DNA from: an uncultured virus (IMG/VR IMGVR_UViG_3300027736_000038)
Taxonomy: Duplodnaviria; Heunggongvirae; Uroviricota; Caudoviricetes
Virus record (IMG/VR): IMGVR_UViG_3300027736_000038
Span: 1 to 64,000 of that record
DNA length: 64,000 nucleotides
Strand: one strand, 5' to 3'
In this document: in pieces, positions 1 through 59,022 of the stretch
Layout: every line of letters starts with the position of its first letter
Position numbering within the stretch: position 1 is the stretch's first letter
The notes under the pieces: model-generated
What the model saw: only the letters and a program-made list of their open reading frames with translations
Database searches by the model: none
What the model was told of the DNA's origin: nothing
Position numbers and translations under genes: made by a program

Positions 1-13
1 CTCTAGTGTCCAT
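1..13 (-). CDS. 5' end of a gene running off the window (MDTR...)
   Basis: ATG at 13-11 preceded by AGGAG SD and a sigma70-like promoter at 41-69; truncated by the window edge. Confidence 0.5.
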
Positions 14-40
14 GTAAATCTCCTAGGTAAGTTATAGCAT

Positions 41-69
41 ATTATACAGTATTCCTGGAAGAAAAGCTA
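41..69 (-). promoter_or_regulatory. sigma70-like promoter (TAGCTT-17-TATAAT)
   Basis: Perfect -10, weak -35, 17-nt spacer, upstream of SD and ATG. Confidence 0.45.
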
Positions 70-97
70 GCATTAATCCCAACAATTGAGCCAAATG

Positions 98-1198
98 CTA
101 TTTTATGAAAAGTCGGTAAATCGTACTAACTATACCAATATTTTCAGCTTGTGCCCGGCGGGCAAACTCTCCAGACATGATATAGTCTTGGTTGTAACGA
201 CTAGATTCTTGAGTAGCATCAACAAGATCCTGGATACTGTACTGAGAAAACTGTTTTATCAAATTTACAATGCTAACTAACCGTGTGATGTTACCGGGAT
301 CTGAGTCCCAACTGGTATCAAATTTATAATCAAATTGAAATCCCAAACGTGAGAGTCTACCGTAGGTGTCATATTGTCCAACCGGCACAAATGCAGTTCC
401 GCCAACTAGACATTTAAGAGTTTTTTCAGTAATGAACGGCCCGGGACGAATGAACCTGCCTTGATCATTGTCCATATAACTGTAGTGCAAGCTTTCATTA
501 GTAAAGTGTATAGCAGCTTGTTGATATGCTGCACCCCATGGGTCAGCTGTGTACTGTTGATAATTCTTGTCTTCGGTGTAGTTATCCCCAATGTCCCGGG
601 GGCGGCCTGCGTATTTGTCCCAAAATATATTGGCCAGAGTGTCCAACAATTTGTTACCTGTTGGCTCTCGATAGTGAACATTTTTCTCCTCTACCCAGTT
701 GCTGAGTTTGAGCAAGCACTGATCTGTTCCGATATACTCTGCCAATGCAGTAAACACCAGCAGCTTGCTTTGTGTAATACGATTACAAAAGGCACTGGTT
801 AAATATTGTCGCTTGGTATCCCACCCAGGGTTTGGAAACCATTCCAGCATTTTTTTAATCTGTGAGTGCCAAAATATGTATGTAAAAGGATACACATTAC
901 TGGCATGAGGCCAGTTGTAATATTCTGAGTCTGACAAAACAATAATCGGCGCCTGAACTCGTTTTGCTTGTTGATTGACCCACTCGACATCCACTGGTTC
1001 CAAGTGGAAGCTTACTACATAACCATCACACCCCAATGGAAGATCTAACTTGCCTAGCCCTGGCAAAGATGGCCATCTTTGCCAAAGGGCAAGATACCAA
1101 GTATCGGGAAATTTTTTTAACCACTGCACATAGTAGTTCTGGGACCATCGATTGTCTAACTGACTAGGTCGACCTGTCCATTCCCTGGGCACTAACAT
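98..1198 (-). CDS. putative glycosyltransferase-like protein (GT10/fucosyltransferase-like C-terminus)
   Basis: C-terminal 'NES...FITEKTLKCLVGGTAFVPVG...LSRLGF...SWD' pattern typical of phage GT-B-like proteins; start moved from 1234 to the ATG at 1198, which lies 4 nt after a TAAATG late-like box. Confidence 0.5.
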   Translation of the reverse strand: MLVPREWTGRPSQLDNRWSQNYYVQWLKKFPDTWYLALWQRWPSLPGLGKLDLPLGCDGYVVSFHLEPVDVEWVNQQAKRVQAPIIVLSDSEYYNWPHASNVYPFTYIFWHSQIKKMLEWFPNPGWDTKRQYLTSAFCNRITQSKLLVFTALAEYIGTDQCLLKLSNWVEEKNVHYREPTGNKLLDTLANIFWDKYAGRPRDIGDNYTEDKNYQQYTADPWGAAYQQAAIHFTNESLHYSYMDNDQGRFIRPGPFITEKTLKCLVGGTAFVPVGQYDTYGRLSRLGFQFDYKFDTSWDSDPGNITRLVSIVNLIKQFSQYSIQDLVDATQESSRYNQDYIMSGEFARRAQAENIGIVSTIYRLFIK

Positions 1199-1227
1199 AT
1201 TCCATTTATCAAGCATATGAATATATA

Positions 1228-1304
1228 TGCTCACTTTGGACCACAGGGTAGCGAATCCGTGATTCCCGGGCAGCAGCCGCCCACCGCACCTTAACGGTCC
1301 TAGG
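1228..1304 (-). ncRNA. putative structured RNA with segments complementary to 16S and 23S rRNA
   Basis: GC-rich intergenic element with two hairpins; plus strand contains GGTAGCGAA (1247-1255), CAGCAGCCGC (1271-1280) and TAACGGTCCTA (1292-1302). Confidence 0.55.
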
Positions 1305-1452
1305 CTTGGTTCTGTTCGCGCTCTGAGCGCATTTTATATAGCATGTTTTGGATAACACGGATGTCATCCTGCTGTTGTACACTTTCTTGTACCAGTTTGA
1401 TAAACTCTAAACTGGCAGCGTCGTCTTCGAACAGGTCATCGACAATCATCAT
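1300..1452 (-). CDS. small hypothetical protein (50 aa, MMIVDDLFEDDAASLEF...EQNQA), not in the ORF track
   Basis: ATGA overlap with the stop of the upstream gene; open to TAG at 1300-1302; N-terminus resembles capsid-targeting-type leaders. Confidence 0.6.
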   Translation of the reverse strand: MMIVDDLFEDDAASLEFIKLVQESVQQQDDIRVIQNMLYKMRSEREQNQA

Positions 1453-3128
1453 TGCTCCTCGATGTAGTCAGCCGACTCAAGTTTTTGGCGCCGGTGTGAG
1501 CGATACATTTCACATGCCAGGCCAGCTTCGTCTAGACTCTTGAACTTGACCCTGCTGGGACGACCCTTGATACTGATACGGAATCCGTCGTCTTCGTTGC
1601 CGTGAATCTTGAGATCATGCCCGTCATCAGTTGTGACAGTTTTGACTGCAGATCCAATTGTGTCACTGCTGTGGGTAGGTGTGTGTTTGCTGGCCAAGGC
1701 AGCGTCATGCTTGACTGCATCGGCTACACTTTGCAAGTAGTCGCCCAGTTTGCGCTTTTCTTTGTCTAACACATCTTCCTGTGCGATGGCCTCGTCAATC
1801 TGGGGTTGCCAGTAAGACTCTTCAACTTCGTCTACTGCAATGTTTTCACCACCGGCTTCGATAGCACCAATACCATCAGCATCATGTGCAACCTGTTCCA
1901 GCTGCAGCCAGTAGCGGCGCGGCACAGTCATCATGCCCGACTCAGGGTCTTGCTCGACCACATCACCAAATCTCTCCATCACAGCATTGTACGCACGTTC
2001 GGTATCCAAGTGGAATCCGACCCGATCTGTGCTGGCTTCTTCTACCTGTCCCTGGTTGTGTGCTTTCCATGTGGTAGCATACGCAATGGCTTTTTCTTTA
2101 CCGGTCAGTTTACCATCTCGAGCATAACCTTGCTTGATGTGCTTGACCATGCGTTCGGCTTTAGCACCCGGGGGTGCGACTTCATCTACACCTTGAGCTC
2201 GTTTTTGGTATGCTGCCTCACGACGGGCTAATTCTTTTTTGGCATCTTCGTATGGGACTAATGCTCTTGAACCTGGTCCTGCGGCCACCACTCCTTTTAA
2301 GTATCCGACGCCGTACCGAGCCATGCTTTCCTCATGCTCTTTAGCTTCGGCATCCTTTGTTGCTTGTACACGCTGATTTAAGGTTTGTTGAGCGTCGGGA
2401 GTAAAGCTGCCACCGGACCCGGGCAACGAGACGCCGCCTGCACTTGCACCCATGGCCATCGAACCTGCCAACGCTGCTGCACCAAGCTTTTGTTTCCAGC
2501 CTTCCTCAACATCTTGCTCTTTTTTAACAACAAAAGATACATGCTTGTTTCCGGTGTTGGGATCTGTATATGTGCTCTTGAATACCTTGCCGCCGTGAGT
2601 TTTGGCATGTGCAAATGCTTCTGGCTTGCTGTCAAAACGATTAGAGGGCGGCTTAACCATCGGGCTTGCTTCTTCCGCCACACCTGATTGACCTTTTAAT
2701 GCCTGTAATAACGCTTCTGCTACTACGCGGTCTATGTCTTGTTGGTCTTTTGTTAATTGATTAAATGGCACCATTTGTGCTATTCTATCAGCCATTTTTT
2801 TATCAAACTTTCCTTTTGCACGTAACGTCTCGGTATCATCAAATTGATCAGGATCGTCTACAAATTTTTGTGCCACTGACCACCAACCTTTATGAACAGC
2901 ATCACTTATTTGATCAATATTAGTAATACCAGATTCAATTGCTTGTTTAGCATAGGCGGCGCTGGCTAAATTAGCTTGCCATCCAAATGTGTTACCAGGA
3001 CTACTACGACCATAGTGATATTTGTCATCTAATGCCTTGTCACTAATCTGTGCTAGCTGGCTAATGTCCATGTTTTCATTAATCATGTCAATATATTTTC
3101 TAAACAATTCACTAACATTCTCGTCCAT
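1449..3128 (-). CDS. modular acidic protein, putative head-packaged polyprotein; N-terminal RyR-repeat-like domain
   Basis: 559 aa; 'ISDAVHKGW...MVPFNQLTKDQQDIDR' resembles RyR repeats; modules separated by VAEE/VEEG/VDEV/VEEA/VEES; AGGA SD. Confidence 0.6.
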   Translation of the reverse strand: MDENVSELFRKYIDMINENMDISQLAQISDKALDDKYHYGRSSPGNTFGWQANLASAAYAKQAIESGITNIDQISDAVHKGWWSVAQKFVDDPDQFDDTETLRAKGKFDKKMADRIAQMVPFNQLTKDQQDIDRVVAEALLQALKGQSGVAEEASPMVKPPSNRFDSKPEAFAHAKTHGGKVFKSTYTDPNTGNKHVSFVVKKEQDVEEGWKQKLGAAALAGSMAMGASAGGVSLPGSGGSFTPDAQQTLNQRVQATKDAEAKEHEESMARYGVGYLKGVVAAGPGSRALVPYEDAKKELARREAAYQKRAQGVDEVAPPGAKAERMVKHIKQGYARDGKLTGKEKAIAYATTWKAHNQGQVEEASTDRVGFHLDTERAYNAVMERFGDVVEQDPESGMMTVPRRYWLQLEQVAHDADGIGAIEAGGENIAVDEVEESYWQPQIDEAIAQEDVLDKEKRKLGDYLQSVADAVKHDAALASKHTPTHSSDTIGSAVKTVTTDDGHDLKIHGNEDDGFRISIKGRPSRVKFKSLDEAGLACEMYRSHRRQKLESADYIEEQ

Positions 3129-3138
3129 TTTATTTTCC

Positions 3139-3498
3139 TTAATAACTTAATTTAACGTAATTAACTAAACCTTGATTGAAATCTACAATCTTTGCTCTCA
3201 TATATACAAAGTTACCGGTAACATTTGTGTATTGTGTAGCGTTTGGATTGTCGCTCCCGTTAAACTCATATACATCAAACCATTGATTATCCACTGTTGC
3301 AGGATTCGCTAGTGTTGCTTGTATAACAATGTTTCCAATAATATTGGTTACACTAAGATTAACAGTCTGTAAATCTCTGTTCCCTAAATAATATGCTGCG
3401 GCTGGTTGAGCATTCCCCACAACTGTGTAAGGTGCTCCGTTGCCTGGATTTACATAGGCTGTTTGTGGTAACAGAATAAGTGTAGTAGATTGGCTCAT
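3139..3498 (-). CDS. hypothetical beta-rich virion protein
   Basis: 119 aa; 'GNIVIQATL..WFDV..GNFVYMRAK' resembles the C-terminal part of 60014-60778. Confidence 0.55.
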   Translation of the reverse strand: MSQSTTLILLPQTAYVNPGNGAPYTVVGNAQPAAAYYLGNRDLQTVNLSVTNIIGNIVIQATLANPATVDNQWFDVYEFNGSDNPNATQYTNVTGNFVYMRAKIVDFNQGLVNYVKLSY

Positions 3499-3693: not shown

Positions 3694-4428
3694 TTAGACA
3701 GGATCGGGACGTTTTTCTAATTTGTATCGTTTTCCAAGCATATGGCCATACATTAGCACCAGATAACTTAATGTACTTTCATTATCGTAATCAATAGAAT
3801 GAGTTCCACTAGTATAACGATAACTCCAACTGTTAAGTGCAGCAATCGGCCGTTTAACATACCCGTCTAACCATTTGCATAGCGCATCGCTAGGGACTAA
3901 TTCTTTACTTTTACTAACAGTATCATATAAATCTTTAACAAAAGTTTTATCTTCAATGTACGCAGTTTTTAAGTAAATCCTGTAGTTATGCTTTGGCTTA
4001 TTAACATAGTATTTTGTACCAGCAAACTGCTCTACTTGTACCTCAGTAATTTTTACAGTAATCGGTCCAAGGTCCTTTAATGTCAGCAATAATTCTAAAT
4101 CATTACTATAAACTGAAGATGTATCACCCTCAAGTCTAAACGTTATTGATCCGGGCTTTTTGTTACTATTACGCCAATCAATGAAGTTAGTAATTTCGTT
4201 GAAATTTCCTACAACCATAGCTTTTCTATCTACTCTTAATCTATTGTATCCAGTAGAATCTATTCGTTTTACTAAATCTTCTGGAGTTTCAACATAGCTA
4301 GAAAGACCCAACCCATCTATTCTGAATTTAGCACGATATCTATATTTACCGTAATAGTTGTTTTCCTTATATTCATAATAATCAATATTAGGAACGTCTT
4401 TAACTGACCTCAATAATCCCATTTTCAT
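3694..4428 (-). CDS. hypothetical protein
   Basis: 244-aa ORF overlapping the end of clpA; no recognised motif. Confidence 0.65.
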   Translation of the reverse strand: MKMGLLRSVKDVPNIDYYEYKENNYYGKYRYRAKFRIDGLGLSSYVETPEDLVKRIDSTGYNRLRVDRKAMVVGNFNEITNFIDWRNSNKKPGSITFRLEGDTSSVYSNDLELLLTLKDLGPITVKITEVQVEQFAGTKYYVNKPKHNYRIYLKTAYIEDKTFVKDLYDTVSKSKELVPSDALCKWLDGYVKRPIAALNSWSYRYTSGTHSIDYDNESTLSYLVLMYGHMLGKRYKLEKRPDPV

Positions 4429-6661
4429 TTACTTTCGCTGTTAATTTTTGTGTTACTGCAAAATCAATTGCACCGTCTGTCATCACAACATTGATTGTAG
4501 CAGATTTAATGCGTTCAAACAATACTTTTTTACTTAGAGGCACCCGAATCAATTCATCAATCTTACGTGCTAATGGTCGTGCGCCCATTTTCTTATCGTA
4601 ACCTTGTTCTGCCAAATACTCAACTACTGGCTCACTCAAGTTCAATGTGATATCATGCTTATCAACCAAACTCTTTTTCAAGTCATCGGTAAACTTGATA
4701 ACAATCTTCTTAATAGCAAGGGTATCTAACTTGTTAAACTTGCAAATCAAGTCAACACGATTTCTAAACTCAGGTTTAAAGAATTCTTTCAATGCTCTAT
4801 CATCTTCACCGGTCTTCTCTTGATTACCAAATCCAATGTTGTTGCGTTCACTATCACTACTACCCAAGTTACTGGTCATGATAATGATACTGTTCTTACA
4901 GTTAACTTGCTTGCCATTAGATCCAGTGATATGACCTTCATCCAACATCTGTAAGAAGATATTAAAGATATCTGGATGTGCTTTCTCAACTTCATCAAAT
5001 AACATGATACTATGTGGGTTCTTACTCAAGTCATTAATCAATCGTCCACCACTCACTTGACTGTCACCAAAGCCAACATATCCAGGAGGAGGTCCAATCA
5101 AACTGCTAACACTATGCTTCTCTCCATACTCACTCATATCATACTTAAGCAATGGCATATCTAAGTTCTTACTCAATAGTTTAGCAAGTTCAGTCTTACC
5201 AGTACCAGTTGGTCCTAAGAATAAGAAACTTGCTGTAGGTTTCTTATCATTGCCGATACCAGCAAATGAAACATAAACACGTTCAAGTACCTGTTGTACA
5301 GTTTCATCTTGTCCGTATAGTTTGTCCTTAATGTTTGATTCTAATTTATGAATCAATTCAAAGTTATCACCCTTCATCTTATCAGCAGGTACGCCAGTGA
5401 ATCGTTCAACTTGGTCAAACACAAGTTCTTTAGTAATCATTGCGCCCTTGTTCTCTGCTACACGTTGTTTAGCACAAGCGGCATCAAGCAAATCAATACT
5501 CTTGTCCGGGTTCTTTCGGTCATGAATGTAACGGTCAGCACTTTCAACTGCTGCTTTGATAGCTTCATCTGTGATTTCAACGTTGTGGAAATCATTCAGT
5601 CGGCTACTCAACCCATTCAGAATACGAATTGTTGTATCATGGTTAGGTTCGTCAACAGTTACACGATAGAACCTACGCATCAATGCACGATCCTTCTCAA
5701 AACTTTCGTAGTATTCTTCCCAAGTTGTGCTAGCAATAACTTTAAGAGTGCCCTTAGTGATTGCGGGTTTAATCATATTAGCAAAGTCAACTGACCCATT
5801 GTTTGAGCCACCTGAACCCTGCATAGTGTGTGCTTCATCAATGAAAAGAATAGTCTTTTTCTTTGTGTTCAGTGCATCTAATACTGCTTTGACCTTTTCT
5901 TCAAAGTCTCCGCGATACTTACTACCAGCAAGCAAACTACCCACTTCTAAACTATATAGTTGATGATCCTGCAAAAATTCTGGAACTTCTTTGTTAATCA
6001 TCATCTGTGCTAGACCTTCAGCAATTGCTGTTTTACCAACGCCAGGATCACCGACCATCAATACGTTTGACTTGAAACGTTTAGCAAGTACGTTAATGAT
6101 ATCATCAAGTTCTTTTGTGCGACCGATCAATGGTTCAAGTTTGCCCTGTGCTGCTAGTTGAGTTAGATTGATTGTATATTCCTCAAGGATCTCGTCAGCT
6201 TGACCATCTGTTAGATTAGTAGTTTCGTTATGTTTATAATTTTTCTGCCAATGTGCTACGAATTCATTTTTGCTAATTCCATACTTCAATAAGAAATAAT
6301 GAGCATGACTATTGCCTTCGGATGCGATACTTAGATATAAATCAACTGTAGTGACTTGTCTACGACCAGTAAACAAAACTTGTGTTACTGAACGATTCAT
6401 TACACGTTCCAAACTATTTGTTTTGCGTGGAACTACTTCATCTTCTTTGCTTACGATAGCATGTAGACTATCCAAATATGAACCAATTTCCAGGATCATA
6501 GTTTCTACATCAGCACCATAACTTACTATACATTTTTTAAATGAAGTGTGGCTTATTAGTGCTAGCAATAAATGTTCTACTGTAACATATTGGTGTTTAC
6601 GACTTTTAGCAAACTCAATTGATTGTTCAATAATGTTTTCGATTTCGGGTGAATGTGTCAT
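4400..6661 (-). CDS. clpA: ClpA-like Hsp100 AAA+ unfoldase
   Basis: Clp N-domain, two Walker A motifs (GDPGVGKT, GPTGTGKT), FIDEAH, FDEVEKAH, PPGYVG, IGF ClpP-docking loop, GARPL; no ClpB middle domain. Confidence 0.92.
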   Translation of the reverse strand: MTHSPEIENIIEQSIEFAKSRKHQYVTVEHLLLALISHTSFKKCIVSYGADVETMILEIGSYLDSLHAIVSKEDEVVPRKTNSLERVMNRSVTQVLFTGRRQVTTVDLYLSIASEGNSHAHYFLLKYGISKNEFVAHWQKNYKHNETTNLTDGQADEILEEYTINLTQLAAQGKLEPLIGRTKELDDIINVLAKRFKSNVLMVGDPGVGKTAIAEGLAQMMINKEVPEFLQDHQLYSLEVGSLLAGSKYRGDFEEKVKAVLDALNTKKKTILFIDEAHTMQGSGGSNNGSVDFANMIKPAITKGTLKVIASTTWEEYYESFEKDRALMRRFYRVTVDEPNHDTTIRILNGLSSRLNDFHNVEITDEAIKAAVESADRYIHDRKNPDKSIDLLDAACAKQRVAENKGAMITKELVFDQVERFTGVPADKMKGDNFELIHKLESNIKDKLYGQDETVQQVLERVYVSFAGIGNDKKPTASFLFLGPTGTGKTELAKLLSKNLDMPLLKYDMSEYGEKHSVSSLIGPPPGYVGFGDSQVSGGRLINDLSKNPHSIMLFDEVEKAHPDIFNIFLQMLDEGHITGSNGKQVNCKNSIIIMTSNLGSSDSERNNIGFGNQEKTGEDDRALKEFFKPEFRNRVDLICKFNKLDTLAIKKIVIKFTDDLKKSLVDKHDITLNLSEPVVEYLAEQGYDKKMGARPLARKIDELIRVPLSKKVLFERIKSATINVVMTDGAIDFAVTQKLTAKVNENGIIEVS

Positions 6662-7464
6662 TTAGACTCCTTTAGTTTTTGTTGAGAAATGCTATTGATA
6701 ACCGCTTCATCAATGATATCAGGAATAAACGGTTTTAGCAAGATTATTTGGTCACCGTATCCACTAGTGTTGTAGATGGGCATACCTTGTCCTGTTAATT
6801 TCAATTGTATATAGGGTTGTGTTCGTGGTTTTACTGTTACCTCAAGTGTTTTTCCAGATAAGGTCGTGAATTCAAAAGTAGTTCCAATAATCAAATCTAA
6901 TACTGATATAGAATGGTTACAAACTAAATCATTACCTTGTCTATCATATTTAAGATGCGGGTCGATACGAAAATCTACTACTAAACTAGCACCATCTAAT
7001 ACGTTATCGATTTTCATTTGATTACCATTTTGTACCCCTTTGGGTATTTGAATAGTTACCGCATGAACATTAGTAGGTGTTTGTAATTTCAATAATTGTT
7101 CACCGCCGTTGAATGCTTGTTCTAGTGATATGTTTATTGTAGTACGGAATACTTGTTGTTGTGGTTGTTGTCTACGTTGATTAAACGGGTCAAACGGGTT
7201 ACCGCCACCAAACATCTGCCCAAATATGTGTTCAAATCCTTGAGGCATTCCACCCTGATGGTGAAATCCTTGTGGCATGGGATTATCATATTGTTGACGT
7301 TTTTCTGGGCTGCTTAATGTATCGTAAGCCGCTTGTATATCTTGAAATTTAGCCTTGTCGCCGCCTTTATCAGGATGATGCTGACTAGCCAATTTGCGAT
7401 ATGATTTTTTTATTTCATCAGGGGTTGCATTTTTACTAACACCCAAAGTATTGTAATGGTCCAT
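6658..7464 (-). CDS. dnaJ: DnaJ/CbpA-like J-domain co-chaperone
   Basis: J-domain with HHPDKGG, G/F-rich linker, C-terminal DnaJ domain, no zinc finger. Confidence 0.9.
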   Translation of the reverse strand: MDHYNTLGVSKNATPDEIKKSYRKLASQHHPDKGGDKAKFQDIQAAYDTLSSPEKRQQYDNPMPQGFHHQGGMPQGFEHIFGQMFGGGNPFDPFNQRRQQPQQQVFRTTINISLEQAFNGGEQLLKLQTPTNVHAVTIQIPKGVQNGNQMKIDNVLDGASLVVDFRIDPHLKYDRQGNDLVCNHSISVLDLIIGTTFEFTTLSGKTLEVTVKPRTQPYIQLKLTGQGMPIYNTSGYGDQIILLKPFIPDIIDEAVINSISQQKLKESK

Positions 7465-8105: not shown

Positions 8106-8654
8106 TTATAACCCTGCCATTGATATAAATGCTTTTAATTCGCTATCTGGTTCGCCGTGTAGATTTATTGTATCTAATCCTGCACGATGACGCATCTCAT
8201 TTAAACCTTCTTCATCTTCATTTTCTTCACGATATTCATGTGGACTAATAGTAATTTTTTGTTTCAATAAATCTGCATCAGCATCATAATCTTCTTCATC
8301 AATATTTATAGTCCACTCGGTTACTTTTAAATCTGTTAATGTTTCTAAATCTTCTATTAATTCTACAATACGTTCTGGGACTTTTGTTCTGCGTTTCATC
8401 TCAACAAATACTAGATATTTGCCTGGACTTAATTCACCTTCACTTAAACTAGCATCAAGTACCCAATCATACCCACGTTCAAACCAATCAACTAAATCAT
8501 TGCCTGCTGCTTCACTTTTAACAGTAAATGCTAATGTAACAATATCACTGTCTTTACCCATCTTAGCAGAATATTCATCTACGGAAACGGTAGGTTCAAT
8601 TTGGTCTACCATATCCAAATAATCTAATCCTTCATTAATGATTCTTCTTGTCAT
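8106..8654 (-). CDS. hypothetical acidic protein
   Basis: 182-aa ORF in the late operon; N-terminal 'IINE|G'. Confidence 0.7.
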   Translation of the reverse strand: MTRRIINEGLDYLDMVDQIEPTVSVDEYSAKMGKDSDIVTLAFTVKSEAAGNDLVDWFERGYDWVLDASLSEGELSPGKYLVFVEMKRRTKVPERIVELIEDLETLTDLKVTEWTINIDEEDYDADADLLKQKITISPHEYREENEDEEGLNEMRHRAGLDTINLHGEPDSELKAFISMAGL

Positions 8655-20046: not shown

Positions 20047-28437
<8,391 letters not shown>

Positions 28438-47177: not shown

Positions 47178-48452
47178 TTATGCGCTAGCAATAGTTACGA
47201 TTGCGTAAGGTTGTCCACCAGTCGCATTTGCTGCTACTGCTGTGTTGAATGTTGCAAATACTGGAGCAGCATTTTGGAACACTATATTACCAGTAGCAAT
47301 TGGTCCTGAAGTAGCAGTAAACAACTCACCAGTGTGGTCAGAAAGACTTTGTACTGTTTGAGTAGCACTATTAGCATATGTAGCAAGGATACGCATTGAG
47401 TTTGGTGTCAATGCTGTGTTTGCAACGTTTGCTGTAAAGCATTGTGCTGTTAAACCAGTTACTGTTCCTGTTACTAGATATTTTTGTTTACCCTTTTGAC
47501 GAACAATATAACCTGCTTCATCATTAGCATAGATGAATGAAGCATTACTTCTGACAACGTTAGCATTGGCTGTTAGTACAACACGATTCATAAGAGCATT
47601 AGCTGTTACTGACGCATTAGCGGTGACAGCTTGTACCGGTCCACCTTGACTAGTAGAAACGGTGAATGCTGCTGCGTTAGCGATAGTTTTAACAAAATAT
47701 GTTGTACCTGTAGTTAAACCGCCAAAATTTGCGCTAAACTGTATTGGCATATCTGCTATAAGAGTTTGTGCATTACCCGAAGTTCCAATAACGCTACCTG
47801 ATACTGTTGTATTGGCAACAGCTACTGAAACATTACCGTGTGTAGCAGAAGCAAACCCAAGACTAACATAATCAGTACTACCGTTATTATTAGCAACTGC
47901 AATTTGTAGTGCTGCGCCAGTAGCTAAGTTAGCTAAATCAGTACCTACACCAACTACTACATTACTAGTATTAACTGCTAAAGGTGTGTATAATGTACCT
48001 GTACCACTGATACCAATAGCAACTTGTGCTAATACTTGTTTACCAATGATTGCTGTATTACCACCAACTACACTGTATGTGTTAGCATTAGTAGCAGGGA
48101 AACCTGTTCCACCAACTGGGTTGTTAAAGTATGCATCAACAACATTAAATGAAGCACTAACTGATTGACCAGTTGTGTCTGTTAATGGTTGCATTATTTG
48201 TGGCTGTACACTTAACTGAGTCTGTGATGCATTAAATGTAGTATTTGTTAGTATTGAATTTACATAATAAATTGTGTTAGCTGTTAATCCACCAACAGTT
48301 GTAGCAACTATAAATGACATACCTTTAGCTACACCTACAGTAGGTGATGTAGTTAAATTTCCACCTGATATTGTGACGATACTGCCGGTTTCTGCTGTAT
48401 CAGTTACTGTTAAGACTGCTTGAGCCTTTGCGATTTTTAGAGGGCGTCCCAT
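47178..48452 (-). CDS. virion structural protein with two TYY beta-modules
   Basis: MGRPLK N-terminus, 'YIVRQKG..KYLV'; strong AAGGAG SD; late box. Confidence 0.7.
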   Translation of the reverse strand: MGRPLKIAKAQAVLTVTDTAETGSIVTISGGNLTTSPTVGVAKGMSFIVATTVGGLTANTIYYVNSILTNTTFNASQTQLSVQPQIMQPLTDTTGQSVSASFNVVDAYFNNPVGGTGFPATNANTYSVVGGNTAIIGKQVLAQVAIGISGTGTLYTPLAVNTSNVVVGVGTDLANLATGAALQIAVANNNGSTDYVSLGFASATHGNVSVAVANTTVSGSVIGTSGNAQTLIADMPIQFSANFGGLTTGTTYFVKTIANAAAFTVSTSQGGPVQAVTANASVTANALMNRVVLTANANVVRSNASFIYANDEAGYIVRQKGKQKYLVTGTVTGLTAQCFTANVANTALTPNSMRILATYANSATQTVQSLSDHTGELFTATSGPIATGNIVFQNAAPVFATFNTAVAANATGGQPYAIVTIASA

Positions 48453-48470
48453 TTGTTTCTCCTTGAAATA

Positions 48471-48526
48471 TTAGTGAGTTCTAGTCACTACGCGGCGGGG
48501 ACCGCATAAACTCGCCGAATGCGAAT
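48471..48526 (-). promoter_or_regulatory. three-hairpin structured 5' leader behind a late promoter
   Basis: UCGC/GCGA, UAUGCGG/CCGCGUA and UAGUGA/UCACUA stems between GATAAATA (48535-48542) and the SD. Confidence 0.55.
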
Positions 48527-57541: not shown

Positions 57542-57579
57542 ATAATTATCCTACTAGTATTTATGCGTGTATGGTATAA

Positions 57580-59022
57580 TTATTTCTTTAAGGAATTCAA
57601 CAATGTCTTAAATTTTGATCCCTGTATTTCAGCATGAACTGTTCTAGTCAACGGTTCTAATGTTATTTCTTCAGTACTTTGATCAACAGTATAATCTGTA
57701 ACTGTAGCTTGTGGTTTTAATGTACTCATTATGTCATTTGCGCTTGGCTTTGGTGTGTAACTCTGTTCACCATCGACCCCGGGGTCACTGATACGCATAG
57801 TCTCAACATCATATTCTAAATCAATCTTCATTCCTACGCCAGTTGAACTACGACTTTTCATACATTGAATCTGATACTTGCCACGCTCACGCATACTGCG
57901 ACTTGTGAAGATACCAAACACGTTATCTGCTGTGTTAATCTTACTGATACCGCCTGCAATATGACTATGGTCAAATTCTTGTTCGTCAACAGCACTACGA
58001 TTTAACTGACTTGCGGTAACTAACAAGACACCAAGTTCCTTTGCTAAATTACGCAATTCTTCTGCTACATACTTATCTTTAATAAACTGATCAGTGGGGC
58101 TAACATTAATAGACACTGGCATAACCAAATCTAAGTAATCAATCATAACAAAGTCAATTTTAATACCAGTTTGAATTTGCACCTCTTTTAAATAAGCACG
58201 AATATCATTTACATTGCTTTGTGCCGGTAATGCTTTAACCCGATACTTTCCAGACTTCTTACCTGCTATCTTAACTCTAAGTTCTGTTGTATCAATATCT
58301 TTACGAATTGCTTTTGTACCCATCATGGTTAACATTGCATCTGTACGCAACGATGTTAATTCTTCACTCAATTCCAGGGTAATATATGCACCACTCAATC
58401 CCATTTGTAACCAGCTTAATGCAATGTTCATCATCACAAGTGATTTACCTGAACCTGAACCACCTGCAAAGATATTCAATTCACCTCTACTCATGCCACC
58501 ATACAAAATACGATCCATTTGTGGCCAGCCTGTTGATACTTGTCCACCACTATTAAAATATTTGTTGATACGACCTTTAGGATCAGCAAAGTAATCTGTA
58601 CCCATGTCTCTTTGTAAACTAATTTGTACCGCATCTTTGATTAGTTTTTCAACTGGTTCAAAATCACCCTTCTCAAGTAAGTCTGCTGCCTTAAGAATAG
58701 CACGTTCTAATTCTTGTCTTTTGGTAAATGATTCAAATTCGTCAAAGAACCATTCATAATGACCTTCATTCAATTCTGGGATAGGGTCAATATCTATTCC
58801 GGTTGTTGCTTTAATTTGTGTAGAGTCCGGTAATACTCTATATTTGTCGGTATGTGTTTTAAATAATTCAGCCACTGGTTTTAGCGAACGATCAAAATTC
58901 TCGCTATTCATAATATTCATAACACGGGTATACAATTCCGCGTTTGTAATCATCATCCTCAGAAACAGCTTCTGAACATCAGATGTGTATTCTAATTGTT
59001 TTTTAGATTCCTGCTTTGCCAA
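57580..59022 (-). CDS. replicative DnaB-like helicase (gp41-like)
   Basis: GGSGSGKS Walker A, TLELSE, IDYLDL, TASQLNR, MKSR. Confidence 0.9.
   Translation of the reverse strand: MAKQESKKQLEYTSDVQKLFLRMMITNAELYTRVMNIMNSENFDRSLKPVAELFKTHTDKYRVLPDSTQIKATTGIDIDPIPELNEGHYEWFFDEFESFTKRQELERAILKAADLLEKGDFEPVEKLIKDAVQISLQRDMGTDYFADPKGRINKYFNSGGQVSTGWPQMDRILYGGMSRGELNIFAGGSGSGKSLVMMNIALSWLQMGLSGAYITLELSEELTSLRTDAMLTMMGTKAIRKDIDTTELRVKIAGKKSGKYRVKALPAQSNVNDIRAYLKEVQIQTGIKIDFVMIDYLDLVMPVSINVSPTDQFIKDKYVAEELRNLAKELGVLLVTASQLNRSAVDEQEFDHSHIAGGISKINTADNVFGIFTSRSMRERGKYQIQCMKSRSSTGVGMKIDLEYDVETMRISDPGVDGEQSYTPKPSANDIMSTLKPQATVTDYTVDQSTEEITLEPLTRTVHAEIQGSKFKTLLNSLKK

What the first reader, a model, noticed from the sequence alone, without database searches (positions are those of the whole stretch)
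1228..1304. Phage structured RNA that appears antisense to the ribosome's decoding and bridge region (23S H69-H70 and 16S 530 loop)
Seen: within about 56 nt of intergenic DNA the plus strand carries GGTAGCGAA (1247-1255), CAGCAGCCGC (1271-1280) and TAACGGTCCTA(GG) (1292-1302). Known: these equal E. coli 23S about 1929-1937, 16S 519-528 (the 519R primer site) and 23S about 1917-1927. The two 23S pieces are adjacent in rRNA (UAACGGUCCUAAGGUAGCGAA, the I-CeuI site region) but are separated and in permuted order here. All flanking genes are on the minus strand, so the transcript is the complement. On that strand UUCGCUACC lies in the loop of a GGAAUCACGG/CUGUGGUCC stem, and GGCUGCU is the loop of a GGGC/GCCC stem, as expected for loop-presented seed sequences. 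A single 9-11-nt match could be chance; two rRNA-adjacent blocks plus a third universally conserved block is hard to dismiss. Inference: a phage RNA that base-pairs with rRNA to block or redirect ribosome assembly or function, or a cis element acting on ribosomes terminating at the overlapping TAG (1300-1302). If the plus strand is made, it could instead be an rRNA-mimic decoy. I recognise no named RNA family for it.
Basis: partly seen in the sequence, partly recalled or inferred. Interest (0 to 1): 0.92.

Follow-up and report, generated by a model that had tools for sequence, protein, structure and literature searches.

The report
Phage RNA with anti-23S rRNA loops
This intergenic stretch encodes a folded phage RNA, shared by many uncultured phages and one cultured Pseudomonas phage, whose two best-conserved loops are exact complements of one universally conserved stretch of 23S ribosomal RNA, so it may act on the host ribosome's own RNA.

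Summary
In this one sequence it is only mildly unusual: 1.8% of shuffles match rRNA as well.

The weight comes from relatives. The element (window 1226-1316, minus strand) belongs to a large phage RNA family absent from Rfam. It has three adjacent hairpins plus a pseudoknot, with strong covariation.

- **Loop L1:** CCUUAGGACC is 87-100% conserved in 78 relatives collected without reference to it. It complements 23S 1921-1930.
- **Loop L3:** AUUCGCUAC complements 23S 1929-1937, but occurs in only 48 of 78.
- **The "16S 530 loop" block (L2):** it pairs inside the RNA with the 3' tail. It is replaced, with compensating tails, in 8 of 34 relatives.

The element sits just after an upstream stop codon, once or twice per ~300-350 kb genome. 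It also occurs in cultured phage PA5oct.

Best reading is an antisense RNA aimed at 23S helix 69-70. Binding is untested and predicted pairing energies are unexceptional. This scan flagged the same family earlier on other DNA.

The parts
1226..1316 (-). Whole RNA element as matched by covariance model R1 (91 nt).
   Evidence: 80.6 bits, E 3.4e-23, full model length. It is identical in the five related contigs that hold this DNA, including L006, whose downstream protein is only 81% identical.
1304..1310 (-). P1 5' strand (ACCAAGC). It pairs with 1283-1289 (GUGCGGU) as 3+2 pairs around a 2x2 internal loop.
   Evidence: R1 alignment. The outer P1 pairs covary in relatives (helix 1, 69.8% of cells paired).
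1290..1303 (-). Loop L1 (CUAGGACCGUUAAG). UAGGACCGUUA complements 23S 1917-1927. It contains the UAG stop (1300-1302) of the upstream 50-aa ORF. One U is missing compared with the family core CCUUAGGACC.
1283..1289 (-). P1 3' strand.
1268..1282 (-). P2 hairpin GGGC-GGCUGCU-GCCC. Loop L2 (1272-1278) is the complement of 16S 519-526.
   Evidence: P2 is 99.0% paired in 78 relatives, and 3 of its 4 pairs change on both sides.
1239..1265 (-). P3 hairpin GAAUCACGG / CCUGUGGUC with loop L3 AUUCGCUAC (1248-1256). L3 plus the closing C complements 23S 1929-1937.
   Evidence: The two pairs that close L3 are 94% paired and covary (helix 4).
1228..1235 (-). 3' tail AGUGAGCA, the pseudoknot partner of L2 (GCU:AGC and GCU:AGU around one bulged G). 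The GTG that the ORF listing takes as a start codon (1232-1234) lies inside it.
   Evidence: Eight different L2 sequences in relatives each have a 6-7 nt compensating tail.
1300..1452 (-). Upstream 50-aa ORF of no known family. Its stop codon is inside L1.
98..1216 (-). Downstream ORF of no known family. Its likely start is the ATG at 1216-1214, 11 nt after the tail, with no Shine-Dalgarno sequence visible.
   Evidence: The same 11-nt spacing to an ATG is seen in L015, L016, L017, L070 and L080.

Best explanation
The stretch encodes one member of a large, uncatalogued family of phage RNAs. It is read from the minus strand, directly behind the stop codon of the upstream gene, as a 3'-UTR or small RNA.

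**Shown.** The RNA folds into three adjacent hairpins, P1, P2 and P3. Loop L2 is tied to the 3' tail by a pseudoknot. That scaffold displays two 9-14 nt loops:
- L1, family core CCUUAGGACC, complements 23S rRNA 1921-1930 (1917-1927 in this window).
- L3, AUUCGCUAC, complements 23S 1929-1937.

Together they complement one continuous, universally conserved stretch: the 3' strand of helix 69 and its junction into helix 70.

**Inferred.** I think the RNA most likely works as a loop-presenting antisense RNA. L1 and L3 would dock side by side on that stretch while it is unpaired, either in nascent 23S rRNA or in the flexible helix 69 of free 50S subunits. That would hinder or redirect 50S maturation or subunit joining during infection. 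The act of pairing with rRNA, and its consequence, are not shown.
For: **1. Family-wide conservation of L1.**
- 78 unique relatives were collected through L2 and the tail only, so the search was blind to L1 and L3.
- In them, the ten bases CCUUAGGACC are 87-100% conserved, and every one is Watson-Crick to 23S 1921-1930.
- Complementarity tapers on both sides: 71% at U1931, 74% at C1920, 63% at A1919.
- Contiguous complements of 9-15 nt all fall within 23S 1917-1933.

**2. L3.** AUUCGCUAC(C) complements 1929-1937 in 48 of 78 relatives.

**3. Two different scaffolds share only these two loops.**
- These fall into long forms (P1/P2/P3 plus pseudoknot) and short forms (42-49 nt).
- In the short forms L3 is the loop of a terminator hairpin: 21 of 21 unique ones have a stem of 5 bp or more, and 20 of 21 a T-run.

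**4. The folds are real.** Covariation score is 0.460, against 0.161 +/- 0.010 in shuffles (0 of 500 reached it) and 0.04-0.13 with slid partners.

**5. The target is invariant.**
- 23S 1900-1955 is identical in E. coli, nine Acidobacteriota loci and one Leeuwenhoekiella locus.
- No contiguous copy of the target exists in five phage genomes that carry the element (0 of 5 at up to 3 mismatches). Host rRNA is therefore the only continuous complement found.

**6. It behaves like a gene rather than a repeat.**
- One or two copies per 300-355 kb genome.
- 6 of 21 short forms lie at least 103 nt from any co-oriented ORF.

**7. It is phage-specific in what was scanned.** The same two-block pattern in bacterial genomes gave unstructured chance hits (best 21.9 bits in 80 loci; 1 of 70 with both stem and T-run).

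**8. By hand (inference).** A fixed 10-mer has an exact complement somewhere in 4.6 kb of rRNA with p about 0.004. A 9-mer landing within a few bases of it has p about 3e-5.
Against: - No binding, expression or phenotype data exist.
- In mature ribosomes 1920-1924 is paired inside helix 69 and the rest lies at the subunit interface (established knowledge, not tested here). Pairing therefore needs unfolded or nascent rRNA.
- RNAduplex energies of the window's loops on rRNA are not exceptional. Shuffled loops do as well in 46 of 300 trials (L1) and 86 of 300 (L3).
- L3 is replaced by four other loop types with no rRNA complement of 9 nt or more in 30 of 78 relatives.
- One genome's second copy lacks the L1 motif altogether.
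- In 24 of 78 relatives the L1 side extends to 1933 and so overlaps the L3 target. Both loops then cannot pair fully at once.
- The invariant A at the start of L3 faces A1938, so rRNA pairing does not explain it.
- G-U versus A-C counts in the model alignment do not separate the strands (82 vs 86).
- A phage also needs working ribosomes, so the benefit of such pairing is unclear.
Confidence: 0.4

Rival explanations
1. A cis-acting 3'-end element. It would be a protective, processing or termination structure at the end of the upstream transcript, and its conserved loops would be the binding site of a phage or host protein. The complementarity to 23S would be incidental to how it works.
For: - An upstream co-oriented ORF ends within a few bases of the element in 97 of 110 relatives.
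- The short forms end in an intrinsic terminator.
- In PA5oct the element is followed by a canonical terminator.
- P3 is a swappable module.
- Duplex energies with rRNA are unexceptional.
Against: - A generic 3'-end structure would not need two loops that together copy the complement of one continuous 16-21 nt stretch of 23S across two unrelated scaffolds.
- There are only 1-2 copies per genome of several hundred genes.
- No candidate protein partner is conserved nearby: the flanking proteins fall into 84 clusters.
Confidence: 0.25
2. A ribosome-directed cis element. The RNA would act on the ribosome that has just terminated at the stop codon in or beside L1, for example by holding the 50S subunit or the 70S ribosome to favour translation of the next gene, which lacks a Shine-Dalgarno sequence. 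This would be an analogue of termination-reinitiation elements.
For: - The stop codon is the UAG of L1 in 25 of 97 relatives and in the window. In 63 of 97 it ends 5-16 nt upstream of UAGG.
- In the window and five relatives an ATG follows the tail at a fixed 11 nt without a visible Shine-Dalgarno sequence.
Against: - In many relatives a sigma-70-like promoter, or 50-96 nt of DNA, lies between the element and the next gene.
- 25 of 98 downstream genes are a DsbA-like gene, and those read have a Shine-Dalgarno sequence of their own.
- The short forms end in terminators.
- 6 of 21 short forms have no upstream ORF nearby.
- The complementarity is to 23S rRNA, not to the small-subunit rRNA that known reinitiation elements use (recalled).
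Confidence: 0.12
3. A riboswitch-like aptamer whose conserved loops form a ligand pocket. It would control the downstream gene through the pseudoknot next to the start codon, or through the terminator in the short forms.
For: - A compact pseudoknotted fold with invariant loop bases.
- A terminator hairpin that contains L3 in the short forms.
- The tail lies 11 nt from the ATG in the window.
Against: - Downstream genes have no common function. They include DsbA-like, fatty-acid desaturase, bilin reductase, radical SAM, terminase and many unknowns, in 84 clusters.
- Promoters often intervene.
- The element is anchored to the upstream stop, not to the downstream start.
- A ligand pocket does not explain continuous complementarity to 23S.
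Confidence: 0.06
4. A recombination cassette border of the PeSL kind. Such a border is a conserved terminator-plus-promoter sequence that mainly serves to shuffle genes between related phages.
For: - Four contigs (L018, L037, L071, L081) share the window's upstream ORF and the element as far as L2. They then carry a different 3' half and a different downstream gene.
- Many elements are followed by a sigma-70-like promoter.
- PeSLs are described for T4-type phages (PMC4122927, abstract and first third of the text read).
Against: - PeSLs are described there as a series of elements in a genome's variable regions. This element occurs once or twice per genome.
- Recombination does not explain covarying stems, or loops conserved across very distant phages.
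Confidence: 0.05
5. Chance resemblance to rRNA in a G+C-rich spacer with no function.
For: For the window alone, 1.8% of shuffles match rRNA as well, and the single-sequence fold is not significant.
Against: - 100% conservation next to an 81%-identical gene.
- At least 119 and 120 viral hits in two independent scans.
- Covariation.
- Compensating pseudoknot variants.
Confidence: 0.01

Closest known systems
Loop-presenting antisense RNAs (CopA/CopT of plasmid R1, RNA I/RNA II of ColE1, the two-loop OxyS-fhlA contact); recalled, not tested
   Same: Short hairpins display complementary bases in their loops, and two loops contact one target. Members occur both as free-standing small genes with a terminator and inside 3' UTRs.
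   Different: The only continuous complement found is ribosomal RNA, not an mRNA or a replication primer. No target regulation is shown. Loop L2 is locked in an internal pseudoknot.
Group II intron EBS2/EBS1 pairing with IBS2/IBS1 (recalled)
   Same: Two loops in one RNA bind two adjacent target stretches in the same 5'-to-3' order.
   Different: There are no intron domains, no reverse transcriptase and no exons. The element is about 90 nt and lies between ordinary genes.
Viral and cellular mRNA elements that pair with rRNA: Shine-Dalgarno/anti-Shine-Dalgarno, and the calicivirus termination-reinitiation motif that pairs with 18S rRNA (recalled)
   Same: Complementarity to a conserved rRNA stretch, and a position beside a stop codon.
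   Different: Those pair with exposed small-subunit rRNA and lie upstream of the stop-restart site. This element complements a mostly paired 23S stretch, lies downstream of the stop, and is often followed by a promoter or terminator.
PeSL composite terminator-promoter cassettes of T4-type phages (PMC4122927; PMC2839356 seen in a search listing only)
   Same: A stem-loop followed by an early-type promoter between genes of variable regions, with signs of recombination inside the element.
   Different: One or two copies per genome. The fold is more elaborate, has a pseudoknot, and is conserved across distant phages.
Ribosome-associated non-coding RNAs (named in earlier scan note e1-5838125; recalled)
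   Same: Small RNAs proposed to act on the ribosome directly.
   Different: Those were found by co-purification. Here association with ribosomes is only inferred from sequence.

Membership tests
Any Rfam 15 family | A covariance-model match at or near the family's gathering score. | tested here: not met
   - Whole window at gathering threshold: only freshwater-2, at 48450-48526.
- Window 1100-1500 at E up to 10: one 9.8-bit sR3 hit outside the element.
- 20 diverse relatives at E up to 0.1: 0 matches.
tRNA / tmRNA | Cloverleaf or tmRNA architecture recognised by ARAGORN. | tested here: not met
   0 genes in the window.
Loop-presenting antisense RNA | Conserved hairpins whose loops, not stems, carry the conserved bases. 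| tested here: met
   Stems covary. L1 is 87-100% conserved and L3 83-100%.
Loop-presenting antisense RNA | A defined RNA with continuous complementarity to the loops. | tested here: met
   L1 complements 23S 1917/1921-1930 and L3 complements 1929-1937. No such stretch exists in five phage genomes.
Loop-presenting antisense RNA | Demonstrated pairing with, and effect on, the target. | not testable with these tools
   Only RNAduplex energies could be computed, and they are not better than for shuffled loops.
Intrinsic terminator / PeSL composite cassette | A G+C-rich hairpin directly followed by a U-tract. | tested here: not met
   In the window the tail is followed by UAUAUAUUCAU, and no minus-strand terminator is called. 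The feature is met in the short forms (20 of 21) and just downstream of the PA5oct copy.
Intrinsic terminator / PeSL composite cassette | Many dispersed copies within one genome. | tested here: not met
   1, 2, 1, 1 and 1 matches in five records of 77-355 kb.
Riboswitch | Association with downstream genes of one pathway. | tested here: not met
   Flanking proteins fall into 84 clusters, 57 of them singletons, with mixed functions.
Riboswitch | A ligand-dependent expression platform. | tested here: inconclusive
   A terminator overlaps L3 in the short forms, and the pseudoknot tail lies 11 nt from the ATG in the window. Promoters intervene in many relatives.
Termination-reinitiation element | A motif complementary to small-subunit rRNA upstream of a closely spaced stop and restart codon. 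| tested here: not met
   The conserved complementarity is to 23S. The element lies downstream of the stop. Stop and ATG are 83 nt apart in the window.

The most novel reading that the evidence does not exclude
Large phages make a small RNA whose two loops base-pair directly with the helix 69-70 stretch of host 23S rRNA. It would trap the stretch while it is unfolded, and so block or re-route 50S maturation or subunit joining. This would be the first natural antisense regulator of ribosomal RNA in bacteria or their viruses. The P3 module would be exchangeable and could aim at other targets.
Probability: 0.3. Interest if true: 0.95.

Novelty: new variant of a known kind. Interest (0 to 1): 0.8.

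Why it matters
Phages are known to take over translation with proteins, tRNAs and mRNA signals. An RNA aimed at the rRNA itself has not been described in the literature I could search.

The target stretch is among the most conserved in biology. It forms the main inter-subunit bridge and is a contact site for recycling and release factors (established knowledge). If the pairing is real, one RNA design would work in hosts of any phylum, which fits the family's spread over very different phages.

The family is also a well-defined, covariation-supported RNA class missing from Rfam. It has a member in a cultured, transcriptome-profiled phage (PA5oct), so the question is directly testable.

Even if the rRNA reading fails, the element marks a conserved 3'-end RNA module. 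It has exchangeable hairpins and shows signs of recombination inside it.

Tried and rejected
- **Single-sequence folding.** MFE z-scores were -0.77 and -1.36, and the MFE structure differs from the family fold. I dropped it in favour of comparative structure.
- **BLAST against cultured phages.** Window 1-3200, L027:900-2300 and the element L042:1487-1585 at E up to 10 all gave no match.
- **Exact 30-mer of the window's element.** It occurs only in the five closely related contigs.
- **RNA runs X1 and X2.** These are metatranscriptome contigs. They cover 1355-1505 and 1300-1513 of relatives only, and nothing lies over the element. The depths come from contigs and show neither strand nor level. 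No conclusion was drawn.
- **Bacterial genomes.** The two-block pattern has only 17 specified bases, and by hand I expect thousands of chance hits in 596 Gb.
  - The 80 loci fetched were chance hits, or 23S genes read backwards. The best R1 score was 21.9 bits.
  - One locus (L323, a Cellvibrionaceae MAG contig) looks like a true short form.
- **Strand from G-U versus A-C counts.** 82 vs 86, uninformative.
- **Promoter scans** upstream of free-standing short forms and of the PA5oct copy gave no more sites than shuffles.
- **PA5oct literature (PMC7318152).** Its four ncRNAs lie elsewhere: 8263-8498, 21951-22401, 103065-103368 and 246116-246734. Its searchable supplements do not contain the motif.
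- **Catalogue of over 10,000 viral structured RNAs (PMC10690425).**
  - The passages read do not mention rRNA complementarity.
  - The motif is not in the supplementary files that could be searched. Files 1, 2 and 4 could not be searched, so the family may be listed there.
- **Other cultured jumbo phages.**
  - RaK2, GAP32 and SCTP-2: no hit.
  - 121Q, Vibrio phage 2.275.O, Phosso and Atu_ph07: only 12-14.5 bits, not counted as members.
- **tRNA-like, group I or II intron, homing-endonuclease site, attachment site, recoding signal.** I considered and dropped these. ARAGORN found nothing. The blocks are not contiguous in the DNA. The flanks are ordinary ORFs. A second stop follows two codons after the UAG.
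Full report
**1. The observation**

The window is part of a 77-kb virus record rated 22% complete, so the phage is large. G+C is about 37% and nearly all genes lie on the minus strand. The flagged stretch is a G+C-rich spacer (0.58). It lies between a 50-aa ORF (1300-1452, minus) and a 378-aa ORF. Neither ORF matches Pfam or PHROGs.

I compared the stretch with the E. coli K-12 rrnH operon. The + strand carries exact copies of:
- 23S 1917-1927 (11 nt, window 1292-1302)
- 16S 519-528 (10 nt, window 1271-1280)
- 23S 1929-1937 (9 nt, window 1247-1255)

Nothing of 9 nt or more matches on the other strand.

For this sequence alone the signal is modest. In 20,000 dinucleotide shuffles, 1.8% reach the same summed match length on either strand and 5.0% have four matches on one strand. 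The single-sequence folds are not better than shuffles. Rfam has no match and ARAGORN finds no tRNA or tmRNA.

**2. Relatives**

Seven viral contigs encode relatives of the downstream protein.
- In the five that hold the upstream DNA, the element is identical. One of them, L006, has a downstream protein only 81% identical.
- A 57%-identical relative (L007) has an 11-nt spacer and no element.

I then ran two pattern scans of the viral collection.

*Scan A* asked for the two 23S blocks with any 20-50 nt between them. All 80 fetched loci held the match.

*Scan B* asked only for loop L2 and the 3' tail, so it was blind to the 23S blocks. The 80 fetched loci gave 78 unique sequences. Only two of these lacked the L1 core strings my script looked for. 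One (L198) is a chance hit. The other (L207) has a variant L1 (ACUUUAGGACC) and is matched by the model.

**3. Anatomy**

*Long forms.* On the minus strand of the window, the long forms read as follows:
- an A-rich lead, often (U)AAGAAC
- P1, enclosing loop L1, sometimes with an extra small hairpin inside
- P2, with the 7-nt loop L2
- P3, with the 9-nt loop L3
- AAA, then a tail that pairs with L2

A covariance model (R1) was built from 75 members. It finds the window's element at 1226-1316 with 80.6 bits. It finds one element in 80 of 81 sources of scan B.

Covariation on that alignment:

| Measure | Value |
|---|---|
| Covariation score, observed | 0.460 |
| Score in 500 shuffles | 0.161 +/- 0.010 (none reached the observed value) |
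| Score with slid partners | 0.04-0.13 |
| P2 cells paired | 99.0%, with G-C/C-G swaps in 29-31 of 78 |
| The two pairs closing L3 | 94% paired |

The lower parts of P1 and P3 align less well (58-70% paired) because their lengths vary.

*Pseudoknot.* The consensus L2 GGCUGCU pairs with AGUGAGCA as GCU:AGC plus GCU:AGU around a bulged G. Eight of the 34 unique long forms from scan A carry quite different L2 sequences, and each has a 6-7 nt compensating tail:

| Locus | L2 | Tail |
|---|---|---|
| L028 | UCCCCCG | UGGGGGA |
| L018 | GCCCCG | UGGGGC |
| L027 | GCCGAU | AUCGGC |
| L053 | GCUCGA | UCGAGC |
| L083 | UGCCGA | UCGGCA |
| L069 | ACGACG | UGUCGU |
| L034 | GCCUAC | GUAGGU |
| L021 | GCUACU | AGUGGC |

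*Short forms.* The short forms of scan A (42-49 nt between and including the blocks; 21 unique) have no P2 and no pseudoknot. L1 lies between hairpins. L3 is the loop of a hairpin that is followed by a T-run in 20 of 21. Among the chance hits from bacteria only 1 of 70 shows this.

**4. The rRNA complementarity across the family**

*L1.* In the 78 block-blind sequences of scan B, L1 reads CCUUAGGACC with 87-100% conservation. Every base is Watson-Crick to 23S 1921-1930. Complementarity tapers outward: A opposite U1931 in 71%, G opposite C1920 in 74%, U opposite A1919 in 63%. It then falls to background.

The exact antisense matches of 9-15 nt all pile up within 1917-1933. Sense matches, and matches elsewhere in rRNA, are scattered ones and twos.

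The window belongs to a sub-type in which the loop is shifted (UAGGACCGUUA, complement of 1917-1927). So two sub-types extend the match in opposite directions, and both follow the rRNA sequence.

*L3.* L3 reads AUUCGCUAC(C) in 48 of 78 and complements 1929-1937. Its first A is invariant but faces A1938.

The other 30 carry four other P3 tops with no rRNA complement of 9 nt or more against E. coli:
- AGUCGUG
- UACGCCAG, which pairs inside the RNA with a GGCGU stretch between P1 and P2 (read from the sequences)
- CCGGGAAU
- CGCCAUUC

*L2.* L2 equals the complement of 16S 519-527. It is engaged in the pseudoknot and is replaceable. Its variants point to scattered rRNA places. Curiously, the consensus L2 also fits 23S 1902-1910 with two G-U pairs, next to the L1 target. 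I leave that as an observation.

*Fourth match.* The 16S 1380-1388 match straddles the P2/P3 junction and is not a family feature.

*Target conservation.* The target stretch is invariant in the rRNA genes I happened to fetch: E. coli, nine Acidobacteriota loci and one Leeuwenhoekiella locus are identical over at least 1900-1955. Five phage genomes that carry the element have no contiguous copy of the target.

*Caveats.*
- RNAduplex energies of the window's loops on rRNA are matched by shuffled loops in 46 of 300 trials (L1) and 86 of 300 (L3). The case therefore rests on exact, adjacent, conserved complementarity, not on predicted stability.
- In 24 of 78 the L1 side reaches 1933 and overlaps the L3 target.

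**5. Context**

*Upstream.* In 97 of 110 unique long forms, a co-oriented ORF of at least 40 aa ends at the element.
- In 25, as in the window, the stop is the UAG inside L1.
- In 63, the stop ends 5-16 nt upstream of UAGG.

*Downstream.* Distances to the next start are spread from -12 to +96 nt. What follows varies:
- an ATG 10-25 nt on, without a Shine-Dalgarno sequence (11 nt in the window and five relatives), or
- a sigma-70-like promoter serving the next gene.

*Flanking proteins.* They fall into 84 clusters, 57 of them singletons.
- The largest downstream cluster, 25 of 98, is an 86-aa DsbA-like DNA-binding protein (phrog_12534/639; labelled DsbA in phage MIJ3).
- Others include heme oxygenase, bilin reductase, fatty-acid desaturase, ferritin, radical-SAM proteins and a T4-type terminase.

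*Copy number.* One or two per record: five records of 77-355 kb, three of them rated at least 90% complete. The second copy in one complete genome keeps P2/L2, P3/L3 and the tail but has no L1 motif.

*Short forms.* Fifteen of 21 follow an ORF within 32 nt. Six lie at least 103 nt from any co-oriented ORF and look like free-standing small RNA genes. Promoter scans were not above shuffles.

*Strand.* The evidence is co-orientation with genes, the T-runs, and a more stable fold on this strand in 80 of 127 unique elements (the sequences are related, so the p-value is not independent). G-U versus A-C counts are uninformative.

*Recombination.* Four contigs share the window's upstream ORF and the element up to L2. 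They then switch to another L2/tail pair, another P3 stem and the DsbA-like gene. Recombination therefore happens inside the element.

**6. A cultured carrier**

The DsbA-like protein led to cultured jumbo phages: PA5oct and relatives, Phosso, Atu_ph07, SCTP-2 and a Vibrio phage.

R1 finds a member in Pseudomonas phage PA5oct at MK797984.1:115,464-115,563, + strand, 32.6 bits.
- It starts right after the stop of EST35_0189.
- It has CCCUUAGGACCG, an inner hairpin, a P2 whose loop pairs with a CAGC tail, and GAUUCGCUACC.
- It is followed by a canonical terminator.

The PA5oct transcriptome paper lists four ncRNAs, all elsewhere (PMC7318152, passages read).

Weak hits in Phosso, Atu_ph07, 121Q and the Vibrio phage (12-14.5 bits) are not counted. 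RaK2, GAP32 and SCTP-2 gave none.

**7. What it most likely does**

*Shown.* It is a conserved, structured, phage-specific RNA module at the 3' end of a gene. Its two constant loops together complement one continuous, invariant stretch of 23S rRNA. A third loop is tied up internally.

*Inferred.* L1 and L3 dock on that stretch when it is unpaired, in nascent 23S or in the mobile helix 69 of free 50S.

The order of the loops and their targets looks 'permuted' for a linear antisense. It is the normal order when two separate loops bind neighbouring target segments, as in group II intron EBS/IBS pairing (recalled).

I put 0.4 on this reading. The rivals are listed with their evidence:
- a protein-binding or 3'-end-protecting element (0.25)
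- a cis element for terminating ribosomes (0.12)
- an aptamer (0.06)
- a PeSL-like recombination border (0.05)
- chance (0.01)

**8. Known or new**

No Rfam family matches the window or 20 diverse relatives.

My literature searches found no description of a phage RNA complementary to 23S helix 69-70 (most papers seen as listings only). The large catalogue of viral structured RNAs (PMC10690425) may include the family unnamed, because three of its supplementary files could not be searched.

This scan noted the same family before on other genomes (e1-5838125, e1-5827281, e1-6079803; a similar case is e1-6155672). Those are unchecked AI notes that I saw after forming my reading.

- the pseudoknot, which takes the '16S' loop out of the rRNA story
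- the exchangeable P3 classes
- the anchoring to the upstream stop codon
- the low copy number
- the negative bacterial control
- the unexceptional duplex energies
- a cultured carrier

I class it as a new variant of a known kind: a loop-presenting antisense RNA with an unprecedented presumed target.

Noticed in passing
window 48450-48526 (-): A freshwater-2 RNA (Rfam RF02980) at 65.2 bits, above its gathering score of 49.9.
   Followed up: no
window 57578-57673 (-): A weak second hit of model R1 (8.7 bits, E 0.98). It contains UUAGAACCGUU but lies in sequence that looks coding. It is probably not a member.
   Followed up: partly
window 1318-1330 (+): A terminator-like hairpin GCGCTCTGAGCGC followed by ATTTTATATA on the + strand. 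It lies inside the minus-strand 50-aa ORF.
   Followed up: no
L018:1487-1581, also L037, L071, L081: These relatives share the window's 50-aa ORF and the element up to L2. They then carry a different L2/tail pair, a different P3 stem and a DsbA-like gene. This points to recombination inside the element.
   Followed up: partly
window 1270-1280 (-), loop L2 with its closing bases: The consensus L2 CGGCUGCUG fits 16S 519-527 with nine Watson-Crick pairs. It also fits 23S 1902-1910 with seven Watson-Crick and two G-U pairs, next to the L1 target.
   Followed up: partly
L259:1501-1585 (second copy in complete genome G001): This copy keeps P2/L2, P3/L3 and the tail, but its P1 loop has no UUAGGACC. 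The hairpins therefore behave as separable modules.
   Followed up: partly
L264:1501-1625 (Pseudomonas phage PA5oct, MK797984.1:115,464-115,588): A cultured phage carries a family member followed by an intrinsic terminator. It is not annotated in the record and is not among the four published ncRNAs.
   Followed up: yes
window 4400-6661 (-) and 6658-7464 (-): A 753-aa ORF with Clp/Hsp100-type ATPase motifs and a 268-aa ORF with a DnaJ-type J domain. Both were read from the translations only and not scanned against families.
   Followed up: no
L140, L148, L170, L183, L191, L194: In a sub-class, the P3 loop UACGCCAG can pair with a GGCGU stretch between P1 and P2. That would be a second internal pseudoknot in place of the anti-23S L3 (read from the sequences).
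   Followed up: no
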